A DNA stretch of 47,750 nt, from the UHGV virus genome UHGV-1789659; one strand, written 5' to 3'. The position numbers and the translations under genes were made by a program. This DNA comes from a virus. Positions within the stretch are counted from its first letter, which is position 1, and every line of letters starts with the position of its first letter. Shown piece by piece: positions 5,812 to 37,526 of the stretch. The notes under the pieces were generated by a model. It ran no database searches, was not told where the DNA came from, and saw only the letters and a list, made by a program, of their open reading frames with translations.

Positions 5812-5875
5812 CTTAGTAAGACATGCCCAGACCTAATTAGACACACCAGAAAACAAGTTGGTTAGCAGATGCAGT

Positions 5876-5890
5876 AAACAAGTTGTTTTA
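5876..5890. promoter_or_regulatory. AAACAAGTTGTTT operator-like inverted repeat upstream of the terminase operon
   Basis: Near-palindrome; a related GAAAACAAGTTGG lies at 5847-5860; similar sites upstream of parA and the dnaB-like gene. Confidence 0.35.
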
Positions 5891-5928
5891 GAGCGCATGG
5901 ACGCGCTCTGTGTGTTTTAGAGGGATCT

Positions 5929-6561
5929 ATGACTGTCGAAAAAGACGAGGTAAAAACTCGCCTGACACCAGCGGAGTGGGCCGAAGCTGAAGCCAAATGG
6001 ACGTCAGGCGAATATACACTCTCAAAGCTGGAGGAAGAGTACGGCATTCGTCGTGAAACACTCTCCAGACATTTCAAAAAGCGAGGATTAGAGAAAGGCG
6101 CGGACTCTGTTGGGAAGATGGTTCGTGAGTCTCTTAAATCTGACGCAGAGCTTCGCGCTAAAGCCCGTGCGGAAAAGATAGAAGAACGTCGTACACGTTA
6201 TGACGGCTGGGCGTATGCGTTGGGGCAGATGGTGATGGTCGAAGTCACTACGGCCAAACGTGAGGGTAAGCCTTTAGGGGCGATTGAGGGTTCTCTCAAG
6301 AGCTTACAGAGAGCCAGTAATACCCTTGCAAAATGCTTTGAAGTTTCGTCCAAAGCATTGGGCATGGATCATGCGGAAAATGACGAGGAAGAAATTCCGA
6401 ACCTGGTATTTGGTGAGCTTACGCCTTCCCAGGTGGCGAAATTACGTCAGGAAGACGACGAGCCTGAAATCATCGATGACGAATTGCTTGAGACGTTGGA
6501 AGAAGAAGCTCTAAGCGAATTTGATGCGACAGATGATGGAAGTGAAGGGGAGGACGAATAA
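5929..6561 (+). CDS. putative terminase small subunit
   Basis: 210-aa ORF directly upstream of and coupled to the large terminase (TAATG); acidic C-terminal tail; GAGGGA RBS. Assignment is by position only. Confidence 0.45.
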   Translation: MTVEKDEVKTRLTPAEWAEAEAKWTSGEYTLSKLEEEYGIRRETLSRHFKKRGLEKGADSVGKMVRESLKSDAELRAKARAEKIEERRTRYDGWAYALGQMVMVEVTTAKREGKPLGAIEGSLKSLQRASNTLAKCFEVSSKALGMDHAENDEEEIPNLVFGELTPSQVAKLRQEDDEPEIIDDELLETLEEEALSEFDATDDGSEGEDE

Positions 6562-7817
6562 TGGTAATCCCGTCCTCGCTCAGTCTTGTGCAACTGCATT
6601 CTGGACAGATGAAAGTCTTCCAGTCTCCGCATCGATTTAAAGTTGTTTGTGCTGGTCGACGCTGGGGAAAATCCCGGTTGTCGATCTCCACTATTATTCG
6701 TGCGGCGGCAAAGGAAAAAAAGCAAAGGGTCTGGTATGTCGCTCCTACTTACCAGATGGCTCGCCAGATTTTGTGGGACGATCTACAGGAAGTTCTGCCC
6801 CGTAAGTGGGTTAGGAAAAAGAACGACACCACGATGACAATCGTGTTGAAGAACGGTTCGGAGATCGCCCTCAAAGGTGCTGATAAACCTGACACTCTGC
6901 GCGGCGTAGCGTTGCATTTTGTAGTGCTTGATGAATTTCAGGATATGAAGGCTGACACCTGGTACAAGGTGTTACGACCTACTCTTTCATCGACACGCGG
7001 CGGTGCACTGATTATTGGTACGCCAAAAGGCTTCTCGGAATTTCACAAACTGTGGACTATAGGCCAGAACGTAGAGCTGCAAAGAAAGGGACAGTGGAAG
7101 AGCTGGCAGTTTGTAACTGCTGATTCGCCGTTTGTGCCTACGGCGGAAATTGAAGCTGCTAAGAACGATATGGACCCTAAATCGTTCGCTCAGGAGTACC
7201 TGGCCAGCTTTGAAAATATGTCCGGGCGCGTTTACTACCCGTTCGATCGAAACGTGCATGTTAAACCGCTTCAGTTCAACCCTCGGTTGCCTATATGGGT
7301 AGGACAGGACTTCAACATTGACCCGATGTCTTCCGTAATTTTGCAACCTCAGCCAAATGGTGAGCTATGGGCAATTGATGAATTGGTGCTCTTTTCCTCT
7401 AACACGGCAGAGGTTTGTGATGAGCTTGAGAGGCGCTTCTGGCGCTGGAAATCACAGATAACGGTATTTCCAGATCCGGCAGGTGCTTATCGCCAACATG
7501 CTCGCGGGGAGTCTGACGTAGACATATTCAAAGAGAAGGGATTCTTACGTGTCGATTATTCGAAAAAGCACCCGCCAATTGCGGATCGTGTTAATGCTGT
7601 TAACCGAATGCTGATGACCGCATCTGGAGATATCCGGCTGTATATCGATCCGAAGTGCAAGCATTTGATTGATTCACTGGAAAAGGTCATCTACAAGCCT
7701 GGAACACGAGATATGGATAAGACAGGTGGCATTGAGCATAGTGCAGACGCATTGGGCTATCCAGTACATCGTAGGTATCCAGTCAAAAACCGTGTTATTC
7801 TTGGTGGTTCTCGATAG
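6561..7817 (+). CDS. terminase large subunit
   Basis: Walker A-like VVCAGRRWGKS and Walker B HFVVLDEFQD in the N-terminal ATPase region; C-terminal nuclease-sized domain; GAGG RBS. Confidence 0.85.
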   Translation: MVIPSSLSLVQLHSGQMKVFQSPHRFKVVCAGRRWGKSRLSISTIIRAAAKEKKQRVWYVAPTYQMARQILWDDLQEVLPRKWVRKKNDTTMTIVLKNGSEIALKGADKPDTLRGVALHFVVLDEFQDMKADTWYKVLRPTLSSTRGGALIIGTPKGFSEFHKLWTIGQNVELQRKGQWKSWQFVTADSPFVPTAEIEAAKNDMDPKSFAQEYLASFENMSGRVYYPFDRNVHVKPLQFNPRLPIWVGQDFNIDPMSSVILQPQPNGELWAIDELVLFSSNTAEVCDELERRFWRWKSQITVFPDPAGAYRQHARGESDVDIFKEKGFLRVDYSKKHPPIADRVNAVNRMLMTASGDIRLYIDPKCKHLIDSLEKVIYKPGTRDMDKTGGIEHSADALGYPVHRRYPVKNRVILGGSR

Positions 7818-7832
7818 GTAAGTAATTATCTA
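7813..7832 (+). promoter_or_regulatory. GATAGGTAAGTAATTATCTA conserved intergenic motif
   Basis: Member of the GATA(A/G)GTA(A/G)GT palindromic family, immediately upstream of the portal gene. Confidence 0.4.
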
Positions 7833-7843
7833 AGGTTATTCAA

Positions 7844-9418
7844 ATGGAATTGAACGACAAACAAATTAAGGATCTGGTGGCGCGACGCCACCCGGAATAC
7901 GAAAAGAAAAAAGAACATTGGGACTTCCTCGCCAGCACTTACGCTGGCGGGCGTGGTTGGTTTACAGACAATATCTTTCGTTACTTTAAAGAGGGAGATC
8001 AGGAGTTTAAGGAGCGAGTTGAGCGTGCTTATCGCTTCAACCACACTCGTGAGGTGGTAAACCTCATCAACAAATATCTCTTTAAAGAAGACATTCATAG
8101 AAATATCGAAGAGGCACCAGAGCAGATCCGCAATTTCTGGAAACGTGCGACCCGCCAGAATGCCTCTATTGACTCATTTATGGCCGCTATTGATTTGCAG
8201 TCGTCTATTTACGGTCGCATATGGGTTGTTGTCGATAGCACGATGAGTGGTGATGTTGAGTCAGTAGCTGACGAGAAAAAGAAAGATGCTCGCGCCTACG
8301 CCTACTGGATTTCACCTCAGCAAATGCTGGATGTGGCATGGGACGACGACGGGAATATGTTGTGGGCGTTAATTGTGGAAGTCGCTCGTGATGACGCAGA
8401 TCCTTTTACTTCTACAGGTCAGGAATACCAACGTTATCGTCTGTGGACACAAAACGAGTGGTATCTGTTTCGTGAGGAAGTGAAGAAGGGCGCTGGTGGA
8501 GCAGGTCGCCGTCAGGCAAAAGTTATTTTAGAGGATAGCGGTGCGCATAATCTCGGCGTAGTTCCTGTGTTTCCTGTTGATTGTATTGGAGAAAGTGAAT
8601 CACCGTATTTCAGCCCATCGTTGATCGATGATATCGCTTATCTTGATCGTGCGGTTGCAAACTATCTGTCAAACCTTGATGCCATTATTCAGGATCAGAC
8701 ATTTAGCCAGTTGGCTATACCGGTACAGTCGCTTTTACCTGGTGATGAAAACCACACTAAAGTGCTTGAAATGGGCACAAAGCGAGTCTTCACCTACGAT
8801 TCTGAAGGTGGAAACCAGCCGTTTTATCTGTCACCAGACCCGAAACAAGCTCAGATGATCATCACTACGATTAAGACGGTGATTAACGAAATCTACCATT
8901 CAGTTGGTGTAGCTGGTGAGCGAACGAAGCAGGACAACGCACAGGGAATCGATAACTCATCTGGTGCCGCAAAAATGTATGACTTCCAGCGTGTAAATAG
9001 CTTGCTTGTCACAAAAGCAGAGCGTCTGGAAAGGGCTGAACGCCAAATCATGCTACTGGTTGCGAAATGGATGGGGGTAGATCTGGACGAAGACCACTCT
9101 TTAATTGCGTATCCAGAAAGTTTCGATATTCGTGGCCTTACTGATGAATTTTCTGTTGCCGAGAAACTGTCGTTACTTCAGGCACCGGACTCTGTACGTC
9201 GTCACCAGATGGAAATGCTGATTGAGAAGATTTTCCCGAACATCACTGAGGCGATGAAGAAGGAATTTGATAAAGATCTCTTGAATTTTCCGCCAAAAAA
9301 TGATCTAAATACCCTTGAAAATAAGTCAGTACTTACTTATGATCAAGACGCAGCCCAAGAAAGCGGGCAAGATCAACCCCGAGGGAATGGGGACTCATCT
9401 ACTCAAGAGAACGAGTGA
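7844..9418 (+). CDS. portal protein (by size and position)
   Basis: 524-aa ORF between large terminase and scaffold; acidic C-terminus. Confidence 0.65.
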   Translation: MELNDKQIKDLVARRHPEYEKKKEHWDFLASTYAGGRGWFTDNIFRYFKEGDQEFKERVERAYRFNHTREVVNLINKYLFKEDIHRNIEEAPEQIRNFWKRATRQNASIDSFMAAIDLQSSIYGRIWVVVDSTMSGDVESVADEKKKDARAYAYWISPQQMLDVAWDDDGNMLWALIVEVARDDADPFTSTGQEYQRYRLWTQNEWYLFREEVKKGAGGAGRRQAKVILEDSGAHNLGVVPVFPVDCIGESESPYFSPSLIDDIAYLDRAVANYLSNLDAIIQDQTFSQLAIPVQSLLPGDENHTKVLEMGTKRVFTYDSEGGNQPFYLSPDPKQAQMIITTIKTVINEIYHSVGVAGERTKQDNAQGIDNSSGAAKMYDFQRVNSLLVTKAERLERAERQIMLLVAKWMGVDLDEDHSLIAYPESFDIRGLTDEFSVAEKLSLLQAPDSVRRHQMEMLIEKIFPNITEAMKKEFDKDLLNFPPKNDLNTLENKSVLTYDQDAAQESGQDQPRGNGDSSTQENE

Positions 9419-9439
9419 TAAGTAACAAAGGGAATTTTT

Positions 9440-10327
9440 ATGAAACTGTGGCAAATGCTTTTGGCCCGTCGTGGTCTGATGGATGTTGCTGAAGCGTATG
9501 AGCGTGGAGGCGCTGGCGGTGTAGCTGCTGATAATGAGCAGAGTACACAAGATCCTGACAAACAGGGTGAACAAAAAGAGCAGCCGAAGGGTGATGACGA
9601 ATACGCTGGCATGACTCATGAAGAGTTACTGGCCGAACTTCGCAAAACCAAGAAAGCTGGTGCTGAACTGCTGAAAGAGAACATGAAGCGCAAAGAGAAA
9701 GAGCGCACATTGGCCGATCAGCTTGCTCAGTACGGTGATATCGACCCGGCGCGTGCTCGCCAGCTTTTAGAAGCTGAACAGGCCGCAGAAAATGCACGTC
9801 GTGAGGCGGAGCAAGCTGAACTGGAGCGTCGTGGTGAGTTCGATGCTGTTAAAAAACAGATGATCGAAGCACACCAGGCAGAGCTGGCACAGCGTGACGA
9901 ACGTTATACAGCACTGGAAAGTGAAAACGCATCACTGAAATCTCAATTAGTCGAGATGACCGTGGGCGCTTCCTTCAGTAACTCTCTCTTCCTACGTGAC
10001 AAAGTTCTGATGACTCCGGCAAAAGCCCGCGTGATCTACGGTTCTCATTTTGAAGTGGGTGAAGACGGTAGCGTAGTGGGTTATGACAAACCGGCAGGTC
10101 ATAAAGAACGAGCTGTTCTGGTTGACGGTGAAGGTAAGCCGTTGCCGTTTGAATCCGCGATTGAACGCATTGTGCGGGCAGATCCGGAAGCTGACGCATT
10201 GATGCGTAGCGAAGCCAAGCAGGGTGTAGGCTCACATTCTAAATCGACCTACACAATATCCCAACCGAAGAACAAGTCGACTATGGATAAGTTGGCCTCC
10301 GGTCTGGGGAAAATTGGACTTAAGTAA
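9440..10327 (+). CDS. scaffolding protein
   Basis: Charged, Ala/Glu/Arg-rich helical sequence (AELERRGEFDAVKKQMIEAHQAELAQRDERY) between portal and capsid genes; AAGGGA RBS. Confidence 0.6.
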   Translation: MKLWQMLLARRGLMDVAEAYERGGAGGVAADNEQSTQDPDKQGEQKEQPKGDDEYAGMTHEELLAELRKTKKAGAELLKENMKRKEKERTLADQLAQYGDIDPARARQLLEAEQAAENARREAEQAELERRGEFDAVKKQMIEAHQAELAQRDERYTALESENASLKSQLVEMTVGASFSNSLFLRDKVLMTPAKARVIYGSHFEVGEDGSVVGYDKPAGHKERAVLVDGEGKPLPFESAIERIVRADPEADALMRSEAKQGVGSHSKSTYTISQPKNKSTMDKLASGLGKIGLK

Positions 10328-10352
10328 CATCTAAATCAAAGGGAATTGATAG

Positions 10353-11228
10353 ATGCCATTACTGCGTGAAGAAGCTGAAAAGCTGTCTAACAACGAACTC
10401 GAACAGGGTGTGATCGAAACTATCATTGATCGCGATGACCTGTTTGCCATCCTGCCTTTTATGAAAATTAATTCAAAGGCATATCTGTACAATCGTGAAA
10501 AAACGCTGAGTGAAGCTACCTTCATCGACGTTAATGACACCATCCCGGAAGGTGCAGCAACCTTCGAAGAATGCGTTGCGAAACTGCGTATTCTGGCTGG
10601 TGACGTAGACGTTGATAAATTCCTGGCAACCACTATGGCCGACACCAATAACCAGTTGGCTATTCAGGTTCGTCAGAAAGTTAAAGGTCTGGCTCGTGCG
10701 TTCCGTCGCAATCTGATTTTGGGTGACTCCAGCACCAACAACAAAGCGTTTGACGGCATTCCACGCCTGATGCACGCAGATCAGAAGATCGATATCGCCG
10801 GTGCATCTATGACTTTCTCTATGTTCGACGAACTGGTCGATGCGGTGAAAGATCTTGGTGCTGACTGCATCATGATGCGTTCAGAGCACCTGCGTGCTTA
10901 CCGTGCGCTGCTGCGTACAGTAAACGTAGGCCCGTCTGAAATCATGATGGAGAACTTCGGTCGTCCGATGCTGTGTCATAACGGCGTTCCGTTCATCATC
11001 AACGACTTCATCCCGACCGATGCTGGCAAAGCAAGCATCTACTGCCTGCATCTGTCAGAAGAGAACGGCGTTACTGGTCTGTATGGCGGCGACAACGCAG
11101 GTATCGTTGTTGAAAACATTGGTACTGTACAGAACAAAGACGCAGTACGTACCCGTGTGAAGTGGTACTGCTCTCTGGCGAATAAGCACGATAAGGCTAT
11201 CGCTGCACTGACCAATGTAAAAATTTAA
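10353..11228 (+). CDS. major capsid protein (by position)
   Basis: 291-aa ORF after the scaffold gene, followed by a strong hairpin terminator. Confidence 0.6.
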   Translation: MPLLREEAEKLSNNELEQGVIETIIDRDDLFAILPFMKINSKAYLYNREKTLSEATFIDVNDTIPEGAATFEECVAKLRILAGDVDVDKFLATTMADTNNQLAIQVRQKVKGLARAFRRNLILGDSSTNNKAFDGIPRLMHADQKIDIAGASMTFSMFDELVDAVKDLGADCIMMRSEHLRAYRALLRTVNVGPSEIMMENFGRPMLCHNGVPFIINDFIPTDAGKASIYCLHLSEENGVTGLYGGDNAGIVVENIGTVQNKDAVRTRVKWYCSLANKHDKAIAALTNVKI

Positions 11229-11237
11229 TCAGTGTGG

Positions 11238-11255
11238 TAGATAAGTAATTATCTA
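11238..11255 (+). promoter_or_regulatory. TAGATAAGTAATTATCTA conserved intergenic palindrome
   Basis: GATAAGTA-family motif between the capsid stop and the hairpin. Confidence 0.4.
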
Positions 11256-11262
11256 TGTTTAA

Positions 11263-11288
11263 GGGTGGGCTATACGCCCACCCTTTTT
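11263..11288 (+). terminator. rho-independent terminator after the capsid gene
   Basis: GGGTGGGC-TATAC-GCCCACCC stem-loop followed by TTTTT. Confidence 0.65.
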
Positions 11289-11301
11289 GTAGGAGCAAGA
11301 A

Positions 11302-12222
11302 ATGCCAGAACAAAAGATGAAGATTACGGAAGAGGCATTTTCGGATTTTACGGGGCATATGTGCCGCGCCGGATTTACCAATTCTATCTCCGATGAACCT
11401 TTAACCGAGCGGCAACAAAGTCAGCTATCTGCTTGTTTGCAGGCGGTTCCCTTCTCCCAATCCGTAAACATAACTCCGGCTTCACCATCAGTTTTGGTTG
11501 GGAAAACTGTTCAACTTAGTGCAGGTATTAGTATGGGTAAGAGTGCCAGTTCATTCACCTGGAAGTCAGCCAATGATCAAATTGCAACCGTTAACGGCAC
11601 TGGATTAGTAACTGGCGTAGCCCCAGGCAAAGTAAAAATTACTGCAACTGATCAGGAAACCCAGCTTTCCGCTTCAGTGGAAGTCACCGTAAATCCGGTA
11701 GCCGTTCAATCCGTAACGGTAACGCCAGACTCAACCTCTGTTGAGAAAGGAAAATCAGTCAGTCTGAAAGCGAATGTTCAGCCGTCAAATGCGACGAATA
11801 AGGCTGTTACCTGGTCTTCCAAAAATGAAGATAAGGCAACGGTAGACCAGAGCGGGAACGTAACTGGTGTAGAAGTTGGCACTGCGACGATTGAGATCGT
11901 TTCCCAAGATGGTAGCAAAAAGGCAACTGCAACGGTGGAAGTAACTGCGCCTGTTGTGGCTGTTACAGGCGTCGAAATCGACCCAAATAGCACAACCGTT
12001 GAGGCAAACAAAACTGTTCAGCTGACCGCAAATGTCGAGCCGGTAGGAGCCACAAATAAAACCGTTACTTGGGAATCCAAAAATACCGAGTTTGCAACGG
12101 TGGACAGCGAAACCGGTGTTGTAACTGGTGTTGCGGCTGGCACTGCCACAATCGAGGTTACTACCCAAGATGGTAGCCACAAAGCGACAGCGACCGTAGA
12201 GGTCACTGCCGCACAGGAATAA
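11302..12222 (+). CDS. Big_2 (bacterial Ig-like) domain protein, likely capsid decoration
   Basis: Three tandem roughly 85-aa Ig-like repeats (VTVTPDSTSVEKGKSVSLKANVQP...ATATVEVTA pattern); AGGAG RBS. Confidence 0.75.
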   Translation: MPEQKMKITEEAFSDFTGHMCRAGFTNSISDEPLTERQQSQLSACLQAVPFSQSVNITPASPSVLVGKTVQLSAGISMGKSASSFTWKSANDQIATVNGTGLVTGVAPGKVKITATDQETQLSASVEVTVNPVAVQSVTVTPDSTSVEKGKSVSLKANVQPSNATNKAVTWSSKNEDKATVDQSGNVTGVEVGTATIEIVSQDGSKKATATVEVTAPVVAVTGVEIDPNSTTVEANKTVQLTANVEPVGATNKTVTWESKNTEFATVDSETGVVTGVAAGTATIEVTTQDGSHKATATVEVTAAQE

Positions 12223-12266
12223 CCGATATTGGGCGGCGAAAGCCGCCCAAGTGGAGAGAAAGCGTT

Positions 12267-13534: not shown

Positions 13535-13613
13535 CGCTAGTCGCATTATTTACTTTTGGTCGAAATGGTTTTTGGCCAGTAATGAGAGCGACCGACAACA
13601 ACAGGGAGAGAGC

Positions 13614-14422: not shown

Positions 14423-14423
14423 T

Positions 14424-14807: not shown

Positions 14808-14814
14808 GTTAATC

Positions 14815-14832
14815 GGTAAGTATATACTTACC
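14815..14832 (+). promoter_or_regulatory. GGTAAGTATATACTTACC perfect 18-bp palindrome
   Basis: GATAAGTA-family motif upstream of the major tail gene. Confidence 0.4.
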
Positions 14833-31813: not shown

Positions 31814-31933
31814 TTTAGGGATTATTTATATGGCTGTGTGGTTTAAAAATGCGATCTCACAGCCGCAATCATAGGGATATATTTGTGAGTTACCTGATAC
31901 GAATATGAACAGCCGTTAAACGGTATATGTGTT

Positions 31934-31954
31934 GATAGGTAAGTGCATACCTAT
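31934..31954 (+). promoter_or_regulatory. GATAGGTAAGTGCATACCTAT conserved motif
   Basis: GATAAGTA-family imperfect palindrome upstream of the lysis cassette. Confidence 0.4.
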
Positions 31955-32016
31955 AATTGAAAGGAGAAGTGTGATATAAATCCGCCATCCCGATTTGACT
32001 TTTCACGGAGGAAAAC

Positions 32017-32340
32017 ATGTCGAACGAGATGGCGGGCGTTACAACAGAGCAAGTTGAGCGTATTGCCGCGATCGTTGCTCGGGAGGTTGTTGGCAAATTA
32101 GGTAAAGAGCTACGTGAAGAAATTGGCCAGGAGGTCAATGATCAGCTGAAAACCTACTTTGGTGATATGACCCCGGCGCAACATAGTATTCAACACTCTA
32201 ATTTGGACAAACTCCTTAATCGGTTAGATTCCATCTCCAGTGGGTTCTTTGGCGGCATTGTTTCTAAAATAACGTCGTTCATTATTACTGCACTGCTTTT
32301 GGGATTAGCCGCGTATGGCGTAAAAAATGGACTGCAATAA
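32017..32340 (+). CDS. putative holin-like membrane protein (single C-terminal TM helix)
   Basis: 107-aa ORF with strong RBS (GGAGGAAAAC) directly upstream of the lysis genes; C-terminal hydrophobic helix ITSFIITALLLGLAAYGV. Confidence 0.35.
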   Translation: MSNEMAGVTTEQVERIAAIVAREVVGKLGKELREEIGQEVNDQLKTYFGDMTPAQHSIQHSNLDKLLNRLDSISSGFFGGIVSKITSFIITALLLGLAAYGVKNGLQ

Positions 32341-32353
32341 CAGGAGATCAAGG

Positions 32354-33046
32354 ATGAAGACTCCGAGAGGCATTCGTAATAATAACCCCGGTAATCTTGA
32401 TAAAGGATCACCGTGGCAAGGTCTGGTTGCGAATCCAGACGAACCGCGCTTTTGCACGTTTAAAGACCCTGTTTGGGGGATTCGTGCGCTGGCGGTGACT
32501 CTAATTACCTACCACGACAAACGTCGCGCAAAAGACGGCTCAAGTATCGATACCATTCGTGAAGTTATTGAACGTTGGGCACCGCCGAATGAAAACAACA
32601 CTGACGCCTACATTAATGAGGTGTCTAAAGCCGTTGGTGTAACCGCAGACATGATCATCGATCTGCATGATTACGACATCCTTAGACCTTTGGTTGAGGC
32701 AATCATTCGCCACGAGAATGGTCGAGGTCCACTAAAAACGCTGAACACCTGGTATGCGGCAGAAGTTATTGAGGAAGGTCTGCGTCGAGCTGGCGTCGTT
32801 AAGCCGGTGAAAACCGTGAAGGCTGTTCCTGTAACTAAAGAAACCGCAGGCGCAACTGTCACAGCAGGTATTGGTCTGGCGCAGCTTGCCGATGTTATGC
32901 CGCAGGTTTCCGCTGCTATGGATAAAGCACAAGGTCATATCTCTAGCGGGGATACAGTACGCATCATCTTCGGTATTGCCACTATTGTTGTGGCAGGATT
33001 CATTGCCTGGTCGCAGGTAAGAAAACACCAGAAAGGGATGGTCTAA
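32354..33046 (+). CDS. putative endolysin / cell-wall-active protein with C-terminal TM anchor (function uncertain)
   Basis: 230 aa from ATG 32354 (RBS CAGGAG); position between holin-like and spanin genes; conserved-looking GIRNNNPGNL box; C-terminal hydrophobic helix. No catalytic motif recognised by eye. Confidence 0.35.
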   Translation: MKTPRGIRNNNPGNLDKGSPWQGLVANPDEPRFCTFKDPVWGIRALAVTLITYHDKRRAKDGSSIDTIREVIERWAPPNENNTDAYINEVSKAVGVTADMIIDLHDYDILRPLVEAIIRHENGRGPLKTLNTWYAAEVIEEGLRRAGVVKPVKTVKAVPVTKETAGATVTAGIGLAQLADVMPQVSAAMDKAQGHISSGDTVRIIFGIATIVVAGFIAWSQVRKHQKGMV

Positions 33047-33261
33047 TATGCTAGGCAGCCTGATGATAAAGCTAAAAGTTGCTTTATTCATTGCCTGGTC
33101 GCAGGTAAGAAAACACCAGAAAGGGATGGTCTAATATGCTAGGCAGCCTGATGATAAAGCTAAAAGTTGCTTTATTCATTGCCTGGTCGCAGGTAAGAAA
33201 ACACCAGAAAGGGATGGTCTAATATGCTAGGCAGCCTGATGACAAAGCTAAAAGTTGCTTT
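32998..33261. repeat. 88-bp tandem repeat, three copies (two identical, third slightly diverged) across the endolysin/spanin junction
   Basis: Unit ATTCATTGCCTGGTCGCAGGTAAGAAAACACCAGAAAGGGATGGTCTAATATGCTAGGCAGCCTGATGATAAAGCTAAAAGTTGCTTT repeats at 32998, 33086 and 33174. Confidence 0.9.
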
Positions 33262-33475
33262 GATTACGCTGGCTGCCGTTCTTTTCGTTCTGGTCGGCGC
33301 TTACACGATGGGTGGGAATGCAGCACGACGAGCAATGGAAGAGAAGGCAAAACAGGAAGACAGAAAACGACTTCAAAACACAGTGGAAGTGGTGAATGAG
33401 ACGAGCAATAAAATACGTCAGAAAGATGCTTCTGCCGTTCATCGTGAGTTGTATGATAAGTGGGTGCGTCATTAA
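33224..33475 (+). CDS. i-spanin (Rz-like)
   Basis: N-terminal TM helix (ALITLAAVLFVLVGAYTMGG) followed by a charged segment; an embedded lipoprotein ORF overlaps the 3-prime end. Confidence 0.65.
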   Translation: MLGSLMTKLKVALITLAAVLFVLVGAYTMGGNAARRAMEEKAKQEDRKRLQNTVEVVNETSNKIRQKDASAVHRELYDKWVRH

Positions 33476-33611
33476 ACCACAAACCGCCAGCGTATTGTTC
33501 TGCGATGGAGCTGAGCCTATCTATATCAGCAATAATGATGTGATGACCGAAGAAACCGAACGCCAAATCCTTTTTCACAATACGATGGGAGAGAGAGTTT
33601 GCGGTTGGTGA
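33426..33611 (+). CDS. o-spanin (Rz1-like lipoprotein), overlapping the i-spanin in another frame
   Basis: Signal peptide with lipobox MLLPFIVSCMISG-C; in-frame ATG at 33426 inside the ORF-track ORF 33396..33611. Confidence 0.6.
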   Translation: MLLPFIVSCMISGCVIKPQTASVLFCDGAEPIYISNNDVMTEETERQILFHNTMGERVCGW

Positions 33612-33619
33612 TGCGAAGT

Positions 33620-33637
33620 TCCCCTCACTTGAGGGGA
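33620..33637. terminator. hairpin between convergent spanin and toxin genes
   Basis: CCCCTC-ACTT-GAGGGG stem-loop; flanking T/A runs are weak. Confidence 0.4.
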
Positions 33638-33642
33638 GTACA

Positions 33643-34164
33643 TTATTCTTCGAACAATTTTTCGATAGATTTTGTAGGATAGAACAAAGAACGCTCGTTG
33701 TTACCAACCAGCTGGATAAAGCCTAAACTTTTATAAAACGCCTTGGCTTTGTCATTTAACGCCTCAACGAAAAGTCCATGAATGCCTACAGCAAGAGATG
33801 CATTGTACACAACCCGCATTGCATGTGTTACAAGCATTGAGCCAAATCCTTGACCTTGAAGGGACTTGTCCAAAGCCAGCCTACCCAAAGTAACACTTGG
33901 AACATTCCGATAAGGAACCTTCTTTTGCTGGCTTCTTGAAGGTAAGGACTCCTTTTCAAAGCAGCTGCCTGACAAAGTGTAATACCCTAACACTTTTGGT
34001 CTGTCTTCTTTAGTGCAAAGCACATAAGCGCGAAGAATTTTTCCCTCATGCTGCCTTTTTAAGTGGTTGGTTAAAAAGGCATTTAGTGATTCTTCACCGC
34101 AATCAAAACCATTCAAATCATAATCTTTCTCTCCAGAGAAAATTTCTATCTTTATATTATCCAC
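33643..34164 (-). CDS. GNAT-family acetyltransferase toxin (TacT/KacT/AtaT-type)
   Basis: GNAT motif A QGQGFGSMLV; about 170 aa; immediately downstream of a DUF1778-type antitoxin ORF on the same strand; GTG start. Confidence 0.75.
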   Translation of the reverse strand: MDNIKIEIFSGEKDYDLNGFDCGEESLNAFLTNHLKRQHEGKILRAYVLCTKEDRPKVLGYYTLSGSCFEKESLPSRSQQKKVPYRNVPSVTLGRLALDKSLQGQGFGSMLVTHAMRVVYNASLAVGIHGLFVEALNDKAKAFYKSLGFIQLVGNNERSLFYPTKSIEKLFEE

Positions 34165-34171
34165 GAGTAAA

Positions 34172-34441
34172 CTACTCCATGCTTTTCAGACGATCAGCAG
34201 CTCGTTTCAGCTTGTCGTTCGGTGCCGGAGGATTGCTTATAGCGTCCATAACCAGATTCCAGGATTCTTCATTCAGAACTAGTCTACGGTGTTGCTCTAT
34301 AACTTTCACGGCACGTTCAGATGCACTGCTAACCATAAACTGAGTAATGCTCTGGTTAGACATTGCGGCAGCTTCCTCGATGATGCTTTTATCGTCATCG
34401 GTTAATCTCAAATCGATGCGCTGCTTTTTTAGTGCTGACAT
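34172..34441 (-). CDS. DUF1778-type RHH antitoxin (TacA/KacA-like)
   Basis: Start set at MSALKKQRIDLRLTDDDKSI after an AGGAGG RBS (plus-strand CCTCCT at 34446-34451); the N-terminal RIDLRL plus helical region is typical of DUF1778 antitoxins paired with GNAT toxins. Confidence 0.7.
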   Translation of the reverse strand: MSALKKQRIDLRLTDDDKSIIEEAAAMSNQSITQFMVSSASERAVKVIEQHRRLVLNEESWNLVMDAISNPPAPNDKLKRAADRLKSME

Positions 34442-34710
34442 GTATTCCTCCTGATGGCCGTGATGTAGGAAGGCCATCAATCTCCTCTGTTCAAACTGAG
34501 TTTTCGACTCAAAAATTACTTTAAAAGGCTATAGCCCATTACGTGTGCATTATCAAATTGTGTACGGCATATCACCGTACTTGTAATATAGAGGTCATTG
34601 TTACTTTTTTCAACAGACAAATACAAGCTATGATTGCCAATTGTTAATCACAACCTACCATTTAACCTTTACACCGCAGCCGTAGGCATTTAGGCTATAT
34701 CACATATAAG

Positions 34711-34724
34711 AAAACAAGTTGTTT
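34711..34724. promoter_or_regulatory. AAAACAAGTTGTTT operator-like site upstream of parA
   Basis: Near-palindrome shared with sites at 5876 and 37512. Confidence 0.35.
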
Positions 34725-34759
34725 CAGACGATAATTATATACGCAAAGGGAACTCTCCA

Positions 34760-35428
34760 ATGACCAAGATCTTTGTGGTTGGCGGCACAAAGGGCGGGCC
34801 TGGCAAATCCACCGTTGCCCAGCAAATTGCCGTTTGCCTGAAAGTCAAAAAGAAGAAGAAGGTTTATATCACTGATATAGATATTCAGCGCACGACAACA
34901 AGCTGGTGTGAAGACCGTCGGCAGAACGAAGACCTTGAGCTGATTCCTTTTGCATACGTTCAGGATGACATCATTAAGCACCTAAAATCGCTTCAGGGTA
35001 GAGCTGAGTTTGTCGTGGTAGATGCTGGTGGCTTTGACTCCGAAATTCAGCGACAAGCGATGCTGATGGCCGACGTTATCATTATCCCGCTGCGTCCTAA
35101 GCGTCGTGATTTGAAATCTCTGCGTGACATCGATCCTATTATCGACAATGTTCGTAATGTAAACAATAAAGTGAAGGTCCGCGCTGTCATGAACCAGTGC
35201 CCGGCTTTGCCATCACAAGTGTCTCGCATTCTGGCGGCTAAAGAGATTGTTGAGACGTTTGGCATCGAGTCTGCGCCAGTCAATCTATATAACCGCAACG
35301 TCTATGATGATGCGGAAGAGTCTGGTCGTTCTATCTTTGAAATGACCGGTAGCGAGCGCGACAAAAAGGCGGAAGCCGAGTTTGAAGAATTTGTAGATTA
35401 TCTGTTGAGTCTGGAGGAAGAAGAATAA
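34760..35428 (+). CDS. parA: ParA-family partition ATPase (small, type Ib-like)
   Basis: Deviant Walker A GGTKGGPGKST at the N-terminus; 222 aa; followed by a coupled small DNA-binding protein gene. Confidence 0.85.
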   Translation: MTKIFVVGGTKGGPGKSTVAQQIAVCLKVKKKKKVYITDIDIQRTTTSWCEDRRQNEDLELIPFAYVQDDIIKHLKSLQGRAEFVVVDAGGFDSEIQRQAMLMADVIIIPLRPKRRDLKSLRDIDPIIDNVRNVNNKVKVRAVMNQCPALPSQVSRILAAKEIVETFGIESAPVNLYNRNVYDDAEESGRSIFEMTGSERDKKAEAEFEEFVDYLLSLEEEE

Positions 35429-35787
35429 TGTCCATGAAAATGGGTGACCTAGCAAAGCGCAAAGAGCCTGATGCACCGGCTAAGAACACAACTCCTTTGC
35501 GCCAACCAGTCAGACCACAGGGACGCCCGACTCGTGGCAAAGAGAAAATTAAAAGCCGCACAATGTCACTGGAGGACGAATACTTCGAACTGCTGGAGAT
35601 GATGAAGTTCATCCCTCGCTTCGAGAAATTCACCCGCTCTGATGTGATTCGTGCTGCTATTTTCCATCTTGCGGAGAAGACACCGCAGGAAATCGAGGAC
35701 ATCGTGAAACTTAACGAGGCGATCACAGCTGCCGACGTTACGATGCGTACCGATGAAATTAAACGAGAGTTGATGAAGAAAGGTTGA
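35428..35787 (+). CDS. ParG-like RHH centromere-binding protein
   Basis: 119 aa; basic flexible N-terminus and C-terminal beta-alpha-alpha pattern (RTMSLEDEYFELLE...SDVIRAAIFHLAEK); TAATG coupling to parA. Confidence 0.6.
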   Translation: MSMKMGDLAKRKEPDAPAKNTTPLRQPVRPQGRPTRGKEKIKSRTMSLEDEYFELLEMMKFIPRFEKFTRSDVIRAAIFHLAEKTPQEIEDIVKLNEAITAADVTMRTDEIKRELMKKG

Positions 35788-35788
35788 C

Positions 35789-35818
35789 AAGAGAAGGCGT
35801 GATTAGACGCCTTCTCTT
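35789..35818 (+). terminator. 12-bp-stem hairpin after the partition operon
   Basis: AAGAGAAGGCGT-GATTAG-ACGCCTTCTCTT read directly. Confidence 0.5.
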
Positions 35819-35831
35819 AAAAGGTATATTT

Positions 35832-36572
35832 ATGCTTTACAAATATGTTGGAAGTAGCGTCCCGGAAGACACAATAAATTATTTAAAGTATTACTTAGAA
35901 GATGGGAAAATTCGAGATTTCAACGATCCTGCCGAGTTTAAAGTTAATTTTGATTATGATGCTGATATAGACGCCATTAAGAAAAGATTTTTTGAGCTTT
36001 GGCCTAATCATCACAATGATGAATTTGAACGCTGGTTATTGAGTCAAACAGAACATAGTCGCAGTTTTGATAACTATATGATTAGAACGACTTTTCTGCA
36101 GCGTCGGGGAGTTATTTGTTTGACAAAAAGACCAGATAATTATCTTATGTGGTCGCATTATGCGCATTCTCACTCTGGTTTTTGCATCGGATTTGATGAT
36201 GGTTTTATAAATGCGTTTGATGATGTTTTTTTTGTTCGCGGTGAGGTCAAATATTCCTCTGATGTTCCGGTTGTAAATTTTTTTACCGACTCAGCTAAAG
36301 AGATTGCAGCGGCTCTTTGCCTAAATAAAAGCGATGTCTGGGAATATGAAGAGGAGGTTAGAATCGTAACCGAGAATTGTGGCGTGAAATTATTTGATAA
36401 ATCCTTAATTAAGGAAATAACAATAGGTTGTAAGGCTAGCAGTCAACTTCAAAATTATGTTCATCAACTATTTGATTCAGGTATCGAAATCTACAAAATG
36501 AAGTGCCCTACAGGATCGTATAAGCTGGAAAAAATAAGATTAGAGAAAGATACTGATTTTCTTGGATACTAG
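35832..36572 (+). CDS. AT-rich orphan gene; hypothetical protein (possibly DUF2971-like, unverified)
   Basis: 246 aa from ATG 35832; visibly AT-rich versus neighbours; conserved-looking core LMWSHYAHSHSGFCIGFD...WEYEEEVRIV; bounded by hairpin and palindrome. Confidence 0.5.
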   Translation: MLYKYVGSSVPEDTINYLKYYLEDGKIRDFNDPAEFKVNFDYDADIDAIKKRFFELWPNHHNDEFERWLLSQTEHSRSFDNYMIRTTFLQRRGVICLTKRPDNYLMWSHYAHSHSGFCIGFDDGFINAFDDVFFVRGEVKYSSDVPVVNFFTDSAKEIAAALCLNKSDVWEYEEEVRIVTENCGVKLFDKSLIKEITIGCKASSQLQNYVHQLFDSGIEIYKMKCPTGSYKLEKIRLEKDTDFLGY

Positions 36573-36596
36573 TATTGGTAGTATCAACAATTATGA

Positions 36597-36645
36597 CCTG
36601 CTTCCGTATATAATAAGTATCTTAGTATATATATACGGAAGCAGG
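36597..36645. repeat. 49-bp palindrome (copy 2) with AT-rich AATAAGTATCTTAGTAT core
   Basis: Arms CCTGCTTCCGTATAT / TATACGGAAGCAGG; same family as 5757-5811. Confidence 0.8.
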
Positions 36646-36728
36646 TCTTTTAAAGACACCCACCAGAACAACTCCCTTCTGTTTCCACTTCCAAAAACTG
36701 CCACCAGTCGCTATCATCCGCTCATTGT

Positions 36729-36750
36729 GATAAGTAAGTATCTACCTACC
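36729..36750 (+). promoter_or_regulatory. GATAAGTAAGTATCTACCTACC conserved motif
   Basis: GATAAGTA-family motif directly upstream of the replication-module first gene. Confidence 0.4.
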
Positions 36751-36761
36751 AGGTGAGCCAC

Positions 36762-37502
36762 ATGAGCCAAATCTTTTTCGATACCATCGACAACGACCAG
36801 TACGACTTCATGACAGAGTGGAATACCGCTGCTATGGACAAGTGGGTCGCTGAAAACATTGGTTTGTCGCGCTGTAAAGACGAGGCTGAACTCTTCGAGA
36901 CGAAGTGGTTTGATTACCGCGACATGCATCCTCTTATGGCCACCTGTCTATTTACGGAGGCATACAAACGTCAGTACTCAAATATCATGCTGACGCACGG
37001 TCGTGAACACTTTGAAACAGCTCCGTTCACCACCGGGTTAAAACGCCTGCCTTATCAGGAGTTGTCGACTGCCAATAAAACGTCGCTATGGAAAGCACGC
37101 CAGTTTGCTGATCGCTATTGCTGTTCATACGACTACTTTATCTCCACGGTTCTTTCCGCAGCTGCACGGCGTCTGTGGGACAAGTTGCCGCGCCCACAGC
37201 ATTTATGGCAGCCAGAGCTGATTGAGATATTTGAAGAGAAATTAGCCAGACGCGCAACAACCCGTCTGGATGACTCTCTGGTTAGCTTTAAGCATATGGG
37301 AGACATGCAGTTCAACCCGATTCAGGAAAGCTATTTTGAGTGGATTCTGGAGCGTTTACGCACCATCCCCCGCAGCAAGCGCATACGCGCAATTTTCTCC
37401 GCTATCTGGCTAATGGAAATTGTTCCAGAGCGCCTTATTTCCGCCCACTTTCCAGAAGAACTGGAAGAAGCACGGCGGTTTATTGATCCCCTATCTAATT
37501 AA
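36762..37502 (+). CDS. hypothetical replication-module protein (possible initiator or helicase loader, by position only)
   Basis: 246 aa from ATG 36762 (ORF track opens at GTG 36753); immediately upstream of the DnaB-like helicase. Confidence 0.45.
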   Translation: MSQIFFDTIDNDQYDFMTEWNTAAMDKWVAENIGLSRCKDEAELFETKWFDYRDMHPLMATCLFTEAYKRQYSNIMLTHGREHFETAPFTTGLKRLPYQELSTANKTSLWKARQFADRYCCSYDYFISTVLSAAARRLWDKLPRPQHLWQPELIEIFEEKLARRATTRLDDSLVSFKHMGDMQFNPIQESYFEWILERLRTIPRSKRIRAIFSAIWLMEIVPERLISAHFPEELEEARRFIDPLSN

Positions 37503-37511
37503 CTAATACTA

Positions 37512-37526
37512 GAAAACAATTTGTTT
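37512..37526. promoter_or_regulatory. GAAAACAATTTGTTT operator-like near-palindrome upstream of the helicase gene
   Basis: AACAA-T-TTGTT inverted repeat; same family as the sites at 5876 and 34711. Confidence 0.35.

What the first reader, a model, noticed from the sequence alone, without database searches (positions are those of the whole stretch)
5847..37526. AAACAAGTTGTTT-type operator-like sites upstream of partition, packaging and replication operons
Near-palindromic GAAAACAA(G/T)TTGTTT occurs upstream of the terminase operon (5847-5860 and 5876-5890), upstream of parA (34711-34724) and upstream of the dnaB-like gene (37512-37526). A shared operator in front of maintenance, replication and packaging operons suggests co-regulation by one repressor or activator, possibly ParA/ParG autoregulation extended to other operons.
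Basis: seen in the sequence. Interest (0 to 1): 0.5.

Follow-up and report, generated by a model that had tools for sequence, protein, structure and literature searches.

The report
Shared operator of a phage-plasmid regulon
A 13-base palindrome (AAACAA-N-TTGTTT) sits just downstream of the predicted promoters of the packaging, partition and helicase operons, and of about 15 more operons in the rest of this SSU5-type phage-plasmid, so it is very probably the binding site of one still unidentified regulator controlling most of the element.

Summary
The window holds four AAACAANTTGTTT sites with at most one mismatch (0.32 expected), at the stated places. One of them is imperfect (TTGGTT).

The window is part of an SSU5/pHCM2/pLF82-type phage-plasmid. 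In complete relatives the motif marks a regulon:
- 9 exact sites in phage Cyrano, all intergenic and 12-48 nt before a same-strand start codon;
- 20 sites in SSU5 (0.24 expected);
- 14 sites in 40 kb of a divergent Klebsiella plasmid.

Anchored alignment shows a -10-like element about 13 nt upstream. That puts the dyad centre near +14 of the predicted transcript. A conserved cassette carries a second copy near -38.

In published RNA-seq of a Cyrano lysogen, 12 of the 15 first genes after a site are at background. parA is at about 5 times background.

My best reading is a DNA operator for one element-encoded repressor. The effector is unresolved. The leading candidate is the small protein after parA, which looks ribbon-helix-helix (omega/ParG-like). 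The rival is a core FljA-family tandem-Sm (Hfq-fold) protein acting on leader RNA.

I found no description of this motif in the searched literature. It is a new variant of a known kind.

The parts
5846..5863 (+). Operator copy terS-a: CCAGA-AAACAAGTTGGTT (one mismatch in the right half)
   Evidence: Conserved in SSU5 (56-68) and pMT1. Absent as a second copy in the Klebsiella relatives, which have a single site.
5876..5888 (+). Operator copy terS-b: AAACAAGTTGTTT (perfect), 25 bp from copy a and 40 nt before the terS ATG
5832..5837 (+). Inferred weak -10-like hexamer CCTAAT, in the same register as the GATAAT of the stronger cassettes
   Evidence: Anchored alignment. This is inference only: the standard sigma-70 scan finds no canonical promoter here.
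5889..5920 (+). Terminator-like hairpin (AGAGCGC-loop-GCGCTCT followed by a T-run) in the terS leader, between the operators and the start codon
   Evidence: In Klebsiella p4727 the stem is conserved and the loop differs. RNA fold.
5929..6561 (+). Small-terminase-like ORF, first gene of the packaging/structural operon
   Evidence: Annotated TerS in Cyrano. phrog_867. Followed by the terminase large subunit.
34707..34724 (+). Operator copy upstream of parA: TAAGA-AAACAAGTTGTTT (perfect), 35 nt before the ATG
   Evidence: Conserved in SSU5 (30449) and in the divergent Klebsiella plasmid CP027615 (AAACATCTTGTTT).
34760..35428 (+). parA: small Walker-type (type Ib-like) partition ATPase, 222 aa
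   Evidence: Pfam matches to MipZ, AAA_31, CbiA and ParA. 91% identical to SSU5 ParA.
35428..35787 (+). 119-aa ParG/omega-like candidate centromere-binding protein and regulator. It has a basic, probably disordered N-terminal part, then the invariant stretches IKSRTxSxEDE and RSDV(I/F)RAA.
   Evidence: Alignments A3 and A8. 90-99% identical across hosts. The single-sequence AF2 model gives helix-helix-long helix at pLDDT 64. No Pfam or PDB sequence match. The ribbon-helix-helix assignment is my inference.
37510..37526 (+). Operator copy upstream of the DnaB-like helicase: TAGA-AAACAATTTGTTT (perfect), 19 nt before the ATG
   Evidence: SSU5 has AAACAAATTATTT at the orthologous place. CP027615 has a perfect copy.
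37546..38886 (+). DnaB-like replicative helicase ORF
   Evidence: Pfam DnaB_C.
889..901 (-). Weak motif match AAACAACTTATTG (AAAGA-AAACAACTTATTG with its flank), inside codons 2-8 of the 92-aa ORF. Status doubtful.
   Evidence: PWM score 18.2 against 24-30 for the four good sites. Sequence.
636..914 (-). 92-aa ORF (CYRAN_117 homologue), a second ribbon-helix-helix-like candidate regulator. It is transcribed in lysogens.
   Evidence: RNA-seq value 114 against a background of 9.8. Conserved in SSU5, pMT1 and Moellerella, but only 58% identical between E. coli and SSU5. phrog_1466, unknown function.
5466..5732 (+). Weak winged-helix (LexA_DNA_bind) hit only.
   Evidence: Pfam E = 0.07, below threshold. 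phrog_900. At background in lysogens, 7.8.

Best explanation
The palindrome AAACAA-N-TTGTTT is a double-stranded DNA operator. On its upstream side it extends to (A)TAAGA-AAACAA-N-TTGTTT. About 17-20 promoters of this SSU5-type phage-plasmid share it.

It lies just downstream of a -10-like element. In the stronger cassettes this is an extended -10, TGnGATAAT. The dyad centre falls at about +14 of the predicted transcript. In a conserved cassette a second copy lies at about -38.

A dimeric or tetrameric repressor encoded by the element binds these sites in the plasmid-prophage state. It blocks initiation or promoter escape. This keeps the packaging operon, the early and replication operons and the helicase operon near silence, and holds the parA operon at a moderate autoregulated level.

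The most likely effector, about one chance in three, is the 119-aa protein encoded directly after parA. It looks like an omega/ParG-type ribbon-helix-helix centromere-binding protein. If so, the same sites would also serve as dispersed centromeres.

Status of each step:
- Shown: the sites, their enrichment, their positions and their conservation. Published RNA-seq shows low expression of the downstream genes in a lysogen.
- Inferred: the transcription start, the repression itself and the identity of the protein.
For: 1. Enrichment and conservation (observed against expected at up to 1 mismatch):
- window 4 / 0.32;
- Cyrano, 9 exact sites, all intergenic;
- SSU5 20 / 0.24;
- Klebsiella p4727 6 / 0.24 in 40 kb;
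- Klebsiella pfekpn2511-2 14 / 0.15 in 40 kb.

2. Position. Every exact site is 12-48 nt upstream of a same-strand start codon. The anchored alignment of 17 sites has an information peak at a -10-like AATTA/ATAAT segment ending about 13 nt upstream of the motif, often preceded by TGn.

3. Copies that the adjacent promoter does not transcribe. A conserved cassette has two copies 51 bp apart flanking TGAGATAAT. It precedes three differently annotated genes in three genomes. Two more promoters carry only the upstream copy. This fits protein binding to DNA and does not fit a purely RNA element.

4. Dyad symmetry. Both halves are conserved. The half-site centres are 7 bp apart, which is the spacing of adjacent omega heptads (established knowledge of pSM19035 omega).

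5. Expression in a lysogen. In LF82(Cyrano), 12 of the 15 first genes after a site are at background (5.7-12.9 against a median of 9.8). parA is at 50, the next two genes at 89 and 55, and dnaB at 21 (PMC9928086 supplement).

6. The ParG-like candidate:
- It is encoded next to a type-Ib-like ParA.
- Its stretches IKSRTxSxEDE and RSDVxRAA are invariant down to 28-30% overall identity.
- It is 90-99% identical across hosts, whereas the element's DNA is only about 80% identical to SSU5 and the Klebsiella relatives over the aligned segments.
- It is transcribed in lysogens.
- A perfect site sits in its own operon's promoter region.
- No other repeat array that could serve as a centromere lies near parA.
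Against: - No transcription start sites are known. The standard sigma-70 scan finds no canonical -35/-10 promoter directly upstream of the terS, parA or dnaB sites. The -10-like hexamers of these three sites are weak (CCTAAT, TAGGCT/TATAT, TCTAAT).
- The upstream flank (TAAG) is asymmetric and always in the gene's orientation. A pure dyad operator does not need that.
- The ribbon-helix-helix assignment has no Pfam or PDB sequence support, and the AF2 model is of low confidence.
- Known ParG/omega sites are arrays of many units, not isolated pairs.
- In the distant Moellerella relative the ribbon-helix-helix-like core is unchanged, but the palindrome is not enriched: 2 sites against 1.6 expected. 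Only the parA promoter there keeps a pair of units, in another arrangement.
- pMT1 has lost parA and the ParG-like gene but keeps 4 sites. This is uninformative because that deletion is evolutionarily recent.
- parA carries a perfect site yet is the best-expressed target.
Confidence: 0.55

Rival explanations
1. RNA-level operator. The conserved element is the 5' leader AAGAAAACAANUUGUUU of the transcripts. It is bound by the element's core FljA-family protein, a tandem Sm/Hfq-fold protein encoded about 1.3 kb before the window start. Binding blocks ribosome access or destabilises the mRNA, as reported for Salmonella FljA on the fliC 5'UTR.
For: - CYRAN_114/SSU5_121 matches Pfam PF03614 (phase-1 flagellin repressor) at E = 1e-80, with a weak Hfq hit.
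- It is present in all 12 SSU5-like phages of the phage collection and, apart from two short fragment records, in no other phage. It is found in 835 plasmid records, pMT1 included.
- FljA-like proteins are reported to block fliC mRNA translation (PMC2652032).
- The sites lie in the predicted leaders close to the ribosome-binding sites, always on the sense strand with an asymmetric flank.
- The Salmonella fliC leader contains AACAUCAAGUUGUAAU just before its Shine-Dalgarno sequence and shares CAAGUUGU with the motif.
- The gene is transcribed in lysogens, at 18 rising to log2 7-8.
Against: - Copies at about -38, upstream of the -10 and not transcribed from that promoter, are conserved.
- An RNA site gives no reason for exact dyad symmetry. 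The motif alone does not fold (-0.4 to -0.7 kcal/mol).
- The match to fliC is only a core 8-mer, with 4 mismatches to the 12 specified positions. The E. coli fliC leader lacks it.
- The protein is only 34% identical in a Klebsiella subgroup that keeps an unchanged motif.
- Most target mRNAs are at background in lysogens. This points to transcriptional silence, although mRNA decay could also produce it.
Confidence: 0.15
2. The element is a promoter-associated or initial-transcribed sequence, or a host-factor site, and not a dedicated operator. It could be part of a promoter type used by this phage family (conserved ATAAGAAAACAA after the -10), or a site for a conserved enterobacterial protein such as IHF.
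For: - The left half plus its TAAG flank (ATAAGAAAACAA) is the only part kept in the distant Moellerella relative, at several promoters.
- The distance to the -10-like element is fixed.
- The motif is identical in elements from three host genera.
- It resembles an IHF core (AACAAnnnnTT against WATCAANNNNTTR; consensus from my own knowledge).
Against: - The right half is as conserved as the left throughout the Enterobacteriaceae clade.
- Copies at -38 and tandem copies 25 bp apart do not fit a start-site element.
- The IHF consensus is missed at two of its nine specified positions, and IHF sites are normally degenerate, not 13/13 conserved.
- No element-encoded sigma factor or RNA polymerase was seen in the annotation.
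Confidence: 0.15
3. The sites are dispersed centromeres only. The ParG-like protein binds them for ParA-driven partition, and their position near promoters has no regulatory meaning.
For: - No other centromere-like repeat array lies near parA.
- N15 and RK2 are precedents for dispersed partition sites (established knowledge).
- The ParG-like protein is very strongly conserved.
Against: - Every site is placed within a few nucleotides of the same position relative to a -10-like element and a start codon. A purely structural centromere does not require this.
- The targets are silent in lysogens.
- pMT1 uses another partition system and still carries four sites.
Confidence: 0.08

Closest known systems
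Omega (with delta ParA) of Streptococcus plasmid pSM19035/pIP501-type inc18 plasmids
   Same: - A small ribbon-helix-helix protein is encoded with a type Ib Walker ParA.
- Its sites lie in the promoters of copy-control, partition and maintenance operons, so one protein is both global repressor and centromere-binding protein.
- Adjacent 7-bp units, including the converging arrangement, form the binding unit. Here the half-site centres are 7 bp apart.
   Different: - Omega sites are arrays of 7-10 heptads (WATCACW) at three promoters. Here isolated two-unit palindromes of a different sequence sit at about 20 promoters, most of them lytic phage genes.
- The ribbon-helix-helix fold and DNA binding of the 119-aa protein are not demonstrated.
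KorB/KorA global regulon of IncP plasmid RK2
   Same: - 12-13-bp palindromes are scattered over the replicon at promoters of replication, partition and transfer operons.
- KorB is the partner of the ParA protein IncC, so partition and global repression are coupled.
   Different: - KorB is a large ParB-family helix-turn-helix CTPase, and its OB sites lie at varied distances from promoters.
- The two ParB_N proteins of this element (2541-3907) are at background in lysogens, and nothing links them to the motif.
C1 repressor and its dispersed operators in phage-plasmid P1
   Same: - A plasmid prophage in which one repressor holds many separate operons silent through operators spread round the genome. 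These operons include a DnaB-type helicase (ban).
   Different: - P1 operators are asymmetric 17-mers (ATTGCTCTAATAAATTT) bound by a monomeric C1.
- No C1 homologue was seen in the annotations here.
- The partition operon of P1 is not under C1 control.
ParF-ParG of plasmid TP228 (type Ib partition)
   Same: - The gene order is a small Walker ATPase followed by a small protein with a flexible basic N-terminal tail and a C-terminal dimeric DNA-binding part.
- Autoregulation works through sites upstream of the ATPase gene.
   Different: - ParG binds arrays of ACTC tetramer boxes at one locus only.
- There is no detectable sequence similarity.
FljA and the fliC 5'UTR of Salmonella (flagellar phase variation)
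   Same: - A homologue is a core gene of these phage-plasmids (PF03614, about 40% identity to chromosomal FljA).
- Its known target lies in a 5' leader next to the Shine-Dalgarno sequence and shares CAAGUUGU with the motif.
   Different: - FljA has one known target and acts mainly on translation.
- Here there are about 20 dyad-symmetric sites, some of them not transcribed from the adjacent promoter.
- Binding of the phage-plasmid protein to anything is untested.
Dispersed SopB centromere sites of linear phage-plasmid N15
   Same: - Partition sites of a phage-plasmid are scattered in regions that control replication and lytic genes.
   Different: - N15 has four sites with F-sopC-like sequence, bound by a large type Ia ParB.
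- They are not placed at a fixed distance from promoters.

Membership tests
Type Ib partition cassette (small Walker ParA plus small centromere-binding protein, e.g. ParF-ParG, delta-omega) | Small deviant-Walker ParA without an N-terminal DNA-binding domain | tested here: met
   222 aa. Pfam MipZ, AAA_31, CbiA and ParA matches start at residue 2-6.
Type Ib partition cassette | The downstream small protein has a ribbon-helix-helix DNA-binding fold | tested here: inconclusive
   By eye the sequence fits a strand-helix-helix pattern (IKSRTMSLEDE ... RSDVIRAAI), invariant in A3 and A8. AF2 gives helices 48-60 and 70-83 at pLDDT 64. There is no Pfam or PDB sequence match.
Type Ib partition cassette | An array of repeated binding units (centromere) next to the operon | tested here: not met
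   Only one 13-bp palindrome lies upstream of parA. The repeat finder shows no array in 34100-37600.
Type Ib partition cassette | The centromere-binding protein binds the sites and stimulates ParA | not testable with these tools
   Needs EMSA, ATPase and plasmid-stability assays.
Global plasmid regulon of the omega/KorB type | The same binding site in the promoter regions of several functionally distinct operons (replication, partition, others) | tested here: met
   Sites precede terS, parA, dnaB, cobT, nrdB and many early genes.
Global plasmid regulon of the omega/KorB type | The targets are repressed when the regulator is present | tested here: inconclusive
   12 of the 15 first genes after a site are at background in a lysogen. 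No regulator mutant is available.
FljA family (Pfam PF03614) translational repressor with a leader-RNA operator | An FljA-family protein is encoded by the element | tested here: met
FljA family translational repressor with a leader-RNA operator | The target element lies in the transcribed 5' leader near the ribosome-binding site | tested here: inconclusive
   Most sites are 12-48 nt before start codons. Conserved copies also lie at about -38. No TSS data are available.
P1 C1-type operator | Asymmetric 17-mer ATTGCTCTAATAAATTT and a C1 homologue | tested here: not met
   The motif is a 13-bp dyad of unrelated sequence. No C1-like gene appears in the Cyrano or SSU5 annotation. The operator consensus is from my own knowledge.
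LexA (SOS) box | CTGT-N8-ACAG | tested here: not met
   The motif lacks CTGT/ACAG. True LexA boxes occur elsewhere in Cyrano (seen).
IHF site | WATCAANNNNTTR with a degenerate AT-rich flank | tested here: not met
   Two of the nine specified positions differ in every copy. The 13/13 conservation is not IHF-like. The consensus is from my own knowledge.
Known RNA families (Rfam) | A match at the gathering threshold at or near the sites | tested here: not met
   Only two tRNAs, at 46395-46543.

The most novel reading that the evidence does not exclude
The master switch of SSU5-type phage-plasmids is not a classical helix-turn-helix repressor but their core FljA-family protein, a tandem Hfq-fold RNA binder. 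It would clamp the AAGAAAACAANUUGUUU leader of about 20 operons. On this reading Salmonella FljA, the phase-variation repressor of fliC, is a domesticated copy of this phage-plasmid regulator that still recognises a related leader (…AUCAAGUUGUAAU…).
Probability: 0.13. Interest if true: 0.85.

Novelty: new variant of a known kind. Interest (0 to 1): 0.58.

Why it matters
SSU5-type phage-plasmids are common: about 800 of the 72,556 plasmid records searched match this element. They include pHCM2 of S. Typhi, pLF82/Cyrano of adherent-invasive E. coli and the backbone of Y. pestis pMT1. [quoted passage not shown]

I found no description of how these elements choose between plasmid maintenance and lytic growth. 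No paper in the searched library mentions an operator for them.

A single 13-bp site in front of nearly every forward-strand operon gives a direct experimental handle:
- It defines the regulon.
- It predicts about 20 promoters.
- It narrows the search for the regulator to a few small proteins.

If the ParG-like protein is the binder, partition and lysogenic silencing would be mechanically coupled. That would explain why the par operon shares its operator with the lytic genes.

Tried and rejected
- **Chance.** Rejected by shuffles and by conservation.
- **Known RNA family.** Rfam gives only tRNAs.
- **RNA hairpin.** The motif alone folds at -0.4 to -0.7 kcal/mol.
- **Canonical sigma-70 promoters at the three window sites.** None were found by the standard scan. 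The -10 assignment rests only on the anchored alignment.
- **LexA box, IHF site, KdgR box, 434-type operator.** These were compared from memory. None fits in sequence or spacing.
- **Centromere-like repeat array near parA.** None found.
- **Natural experiments to separate the candidate proteins.** All were inconclusive.
  - The Klebsiella rep_cluster_2469 subgroup keeps the motif, with the ParG-like protein at 47% identity and the FljA-like protein at 34%.
  - Moellerella pW18-2-b loses the palindrome. Its ParG-like protein is at 30% identity with an unchanged core, and its FljA-like protein is at 25%.
  - Y. pestis pMT1 lacks parA and the ParG-like gene but keeps four sites. It is too recent a deletion derivative to count.
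- **ParG-like homologues outside SSU5-like elements.** None were found, and one hit was an IS-flanked fragment. No independent genomic context was available.
- **Sequence searches of the ParG-like protein against PDB and Pfam.** No match.
- **CYRAN_45, the helix-turn-helix 'putative repressor' of Cyrano.** No counterpart is annotated in SSU5, which has the full regulon, so I set it aside without a direct comparison.
- **The 88-aa and 71-aa small proteins.** They are at background in lysogens, so they are unlikely lysogenic repressors.
- **The original FljA papers.** They could not be read.

Full report
**What the window is.** The window is 96-98% identical to the E. coli phage-plasmid Cyrano (pLF82) and about 82% identical to Salmonella phage SSU5. 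More than 800 plasmid records from Escherichia, Klebsiella, Enterobacter, Salmonella, Yersinia and Citrobacter share its backbone. Window position 5795 corresponds to base 1 of the Cyrano and SSU5 records. Window 1-5794 is the end of those genomes. The rest runs through the structural, lysis, partition and replication genes.

**The observation.** All four sites exist within a few bases of the stated coordinates:
- 5851-5863, AAACAAGTTGGTT (one mismatch);
- 5876-5888, AAACAAGTTGTTT;
- 34712-34724, AAACAAGTTGTTT;
- 37514-37526, AAACAATTTGTTT.

AAACAANTTGTTT with at most one mismatch occurs 4 times against 0.32 expected, and no shuffle reached 4. The sites lie 65/40, 35 and 19 nt before the start codons of the small-terminase-like gene, parA and the DnaB-like helicase gene. 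A position-weight scan adds only one weak candidate, at 889-901 on the minus strand, inside the first codons of a 92-aa ORF.

**The motif marks a genome-wide regulon.** The complete Cyrano genome has nine exact copies. By the deposited annotation all nine are intergenic and lie 12-48 nt upstream of a forward-strand gene: terS, parA, the helicase, CYRAN_58, 85, 87, 101 (two copies) and 106. One-mismatch copies precede nrdB, cobT, CYRAN_93, 105, 108, 110 and 111.

| Element | Sites at up to 1 mismatch | Expected |
|---|---|---|
| SSU5 (100 kb scanned) | 20 | 0.24 |
| Klebsiella p4727, 40 kb | 6 | 0.24 |
| Klebsiella pfekpn2511-2, 40 kb | 14 | 0.15 |
| Y. pestis pMT1 | 4 | 0.39 |
| Moellerella pW18-2-b (100 kb scanned) | 2 | 1.6 |

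SSU5 includes the orthologous terS pair, parA, helicase, cobT and nrdB sites. The distant Moellerella relative is therefore not enriched. There only the left half with its flank (ATAAGAAAACAA) recurs at some promoters.

**Anatomy.**
- Seventeen sites aligned on the motif give the extended, asymmetric consensus (c)ATAAGA-AAACAA-N-TTGTTT-a.
- A second information peak lies at an AATTA/ATAAT segment that ends about 13 nt upstream of the motif.
- In the early-gene region this segment is a good extended -10 (TGCGATAAT, TGAGATAAT, TGGTATTAT).
- At the three window promoters it is weak (CCTAAT, TAGGCT/TATAT, TCTAAT). The generic sigma-70 scan finds nothing canonical there.
- If these are the -10 elements, transcription starts a few bases before the motif and the dyad centre lies near +14. 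This is inference, because no TSS data exist.
- A conserved cassette of about 75 bp carries two copies 51 bp apart around TGAGATAAT, at about -38 and +14. It precedes three differently annotated genes in Cyrano, SSU5 and a Klebsiella plasmid. Two further Cyrano promoters have only the upstream copy.
- Several sites directly follow terminator hairpins, so they stand at the start of new transcription units.
- Upstream of terS the two copies are 25 bp apart and are followed by a conserved terminator-like hairpin before the start codon. The Klebsiella relatives have one copy there.

**Expression.** The supplement of PMC9928086 gives RNA-seq values for every Cyrano gene in LF82 lysogens, with a median background of 9.8. 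Values for the first genes after a site are:

| Gene | Value |
|---|---|
| terS | 7.1 |
| cobT | 7.8 |
| CYRAN_58 | 5.7 |
| nrdB | 12.9 |
| CYRAN_85 | 7.0 |
| CYRAN_87 | 7.1 |
| CYRAN_93 | 6.3 |
| CYRAN_101 | 7.5 |
| CYRAN_105 | 12.8 |
| CYRAN_106 | 12.2 |
| CYRAN_108 | 5.7 |
| CYRAN_110 | 6.7 |
| CYRAN_111 | 25.5 |
| helicase | 21 |
| parA (next two genes 89 and 55) | 50 |

The site-bearing promoters are therefore off or low in the plasmid state. The same paper reports that ciprofloxacin induces Cyrano.

**DNA or RNA?** Four points favour a DNA operator:
- both halves are exact reverse complements and equally conserved;
- conserved copies sit at -38, where the adjacent promoter does not transcribe them;
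- the distance to the -10 is fixed;
- the motif does not fold as RNA (-0.4 to -0.7 kcal/mol).

Three points favour an RNA element:
- the asymmetric TAAG flank is always in the sense orientation;
- the sites lie close to ribosome-binding sites;
- an RNA-binding candidate protein exists (below).

I weigh the DNA reading as clearly more likely, but it is not proven.

**Candidate effectors.**

(a) *The 119-aa protein after parA (35428-35787).*
- It has a basic N-terminal region, probably disordered, followed by IKSRTMSLEDE...RSDVIRAAI. I read this as the strand and second helix of a ribbon-helix-helix domain.
- These residues are invariant even in homologues of 28-30% identity.
- The protein is 90-99% identical across hosts and is transcribed in lysogens.
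- It sits next to a type-Ib-like ParA. No other centromere-like array is nearby.
- The 7-bp spacing of the half-site centres equals that of adjacent omega heptads.
- Against it: no Pfam or PDB match, a low-confidence model, and the unchanged core in Moellerella, where the regulon is absent. The Moellerella parA promoter does keep TTGTTT-N12-AAACAA.

(b) *The FljA-family protein (CYRAN_114/SSU5_121, outside the window).*
- It matches PF03614 at E = 1e-80.
- It is a core gene of all SSU5-like phages in the collection and, apart from two short fragment records, is absent from other phages.
- FljA-like proteins are reported to block translation of fliC mRNA (PMC2652032).
- The Salmonella fliC leader, read here from two genomes, has AACATCAAGTTGTAAT next to its Shine-Dalgarno sequence.
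- Against it: the match is only an 8-mer, the E. coli fliC leader lacks it, and the protein is only 34% identical in a subgroup with an unchanged motif.

(c) *The 92-aa protein at 636-914 (minus strand).* It is also ribbon-helix-helix-like by eye and is well transcribed in lysogens (114). It is only 58% identical between two genomes that share an identical motif.

(d) *Others.* The 88-aa and 71-aa proteins are at background in lysogens. The Cyrano helix-turn-helix 'repressor' CYRAN_45 has no annotated counterpart in SSU5.

**Comparison with known systems.** The arrangement works like the global regulons of low-copy plasmids and plasmid prophages:
- omega of pSM19035, a ribbon-helix-helix protein that is the partner of a type Ib ParA and binds 7-bp units in copy-control, partition and maintenance promoters;
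- KorB/KorA of RK2, with 12-13-bp palindromes at many promoters and a ParB partner of IncC;
- C1 of P1, with dispersed operators that include one controlling the ban helicase;
- the dispersed SopB sites of N15.

It is not a member of any of these by sequence. It differs in three ways: isolated two-unit palindromes in place of arrays, a fixed position at about +14 (with an optional -38 copy), and the joining of the partition operon to nearly the whole lytic programme. Literature searches for an operator, promoter motif or repressor of SSU5/pHCM2-type elements found nothing.

**Verdict.** The shared-operator interpretation is supported. The ParG-based mechanism is a live candidate, and the leading one, but it is unproven. 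This is a new variant of a known kind of system, with a concrete and testable regulon in a clinically widespread family of elements.

Noticed in passing
window 5755-5813 and 36595-36647: There are two long, near-perfect hairpins of one family (…CTGCTTCCGTATATA … TATATACGGAAGCAG…), with 4 arm matches against 0.08 expected. One follows the 88-aa gene and the other follows the parA operon. A third copy was seen in Cyrano near 78.5 kb. The deposited SSU5 and Cyrano records start inside the first hairpin (window 5795). They could be bidirectional terminators or something connected with the genome ends.
   Followed up: partly
window 5889-5920: A terminator-like hairpin followed by a T-run lies inside the terS leader, after the operators and before the start codon. 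In Klebsiella p4727 the stem is conserved and the loop is changed. The late operon may also need antitermination or read-through control.
   Followed up: partly
Cyrano 100780-101301 (L004:780-1301, minus strand), about 1.3 kb before the window start: An FljA-family (PF03614) protein is a core gene of SSU5-type phage-plasmids. Its predicted structure is a tandem Sm/Hfq fold. Chromosomal FljA proteins are only about 40% identical to it. This raises the possibility that the Salmonella phase-variation repressor derives from such elements.
   Followed up: partly
window 35428-35787: The gene after parA is annotated 'RelE/ParE putative toxin' in the Cyrano record, and PMC9928086 counts it among toxin morons. 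Its sequence looks like a ParG/omega-type centromere-binding protein instead, so the annotation is probably wrong.
   Followed up: partly
window 33643-34480 (minus strand): A GNAT toxin with a TacA-type antitoxin (Pfam TacA1) is transcribed divergently from parA. Its promoter shares the 34480-34760 intergenic region with the parA operator. In lysogens it is among the most highly expressed Cyrano genes (values 344 and 592).
   Followed up: no
window 2541-5456: Two consecutive ParB_N-domain proteins are followed by an ABC-type ATPase and a 296-aa protein, directly upstream of the 88-aa gene and terS. All are at background in lysogens. Their function is unknown, and they are not the partition ParB.
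   Followed up: no
Cyrano about 41050 and about 89280 (outside the window; seen in the alignment rows): Perfect LexA boxes are present: TACTGTTTACTTATACAGTG before the integrase gene and TACTGTATGTGTATACAGTA before the UmuD-like gene. They may connect the element to SOS induction, since ciprofloxacin induces Cyrano.
   Followed up: no
window 40142-41395 (minus strand): A 417-aa Sel1/TPR-repeat protein is present here and in some relatives but not in Cyrano. This is a variable-cargo position between the primase and ligase genes.
   Followed up: no
Cyrano 40268-40822 (minus strand; L002): CYRAN_43 is a 184-aa protein of unknown function (phrog_28788, no Pfam match). It is by far the most highly expressed Cyrano gene in lysogens (value 7084 against a background of 9.8). 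Its role is unknown.
   Followed up: no
window 46395-46543: Two tRNA genes (Rfam RF00005).
   Followed up: no
Cyrano 93114-93177, SSU5 88319-88382, Klebsiella pfekpn2511-2 (L025 30239-30302): A conserved promoter module of about 75 bp, with two operator copies 51 bp apart around TGAGATAAT, precedes three differently annotated genes in three genomes. It may have been duplicated or moved as a unit.
   Followed up: partly
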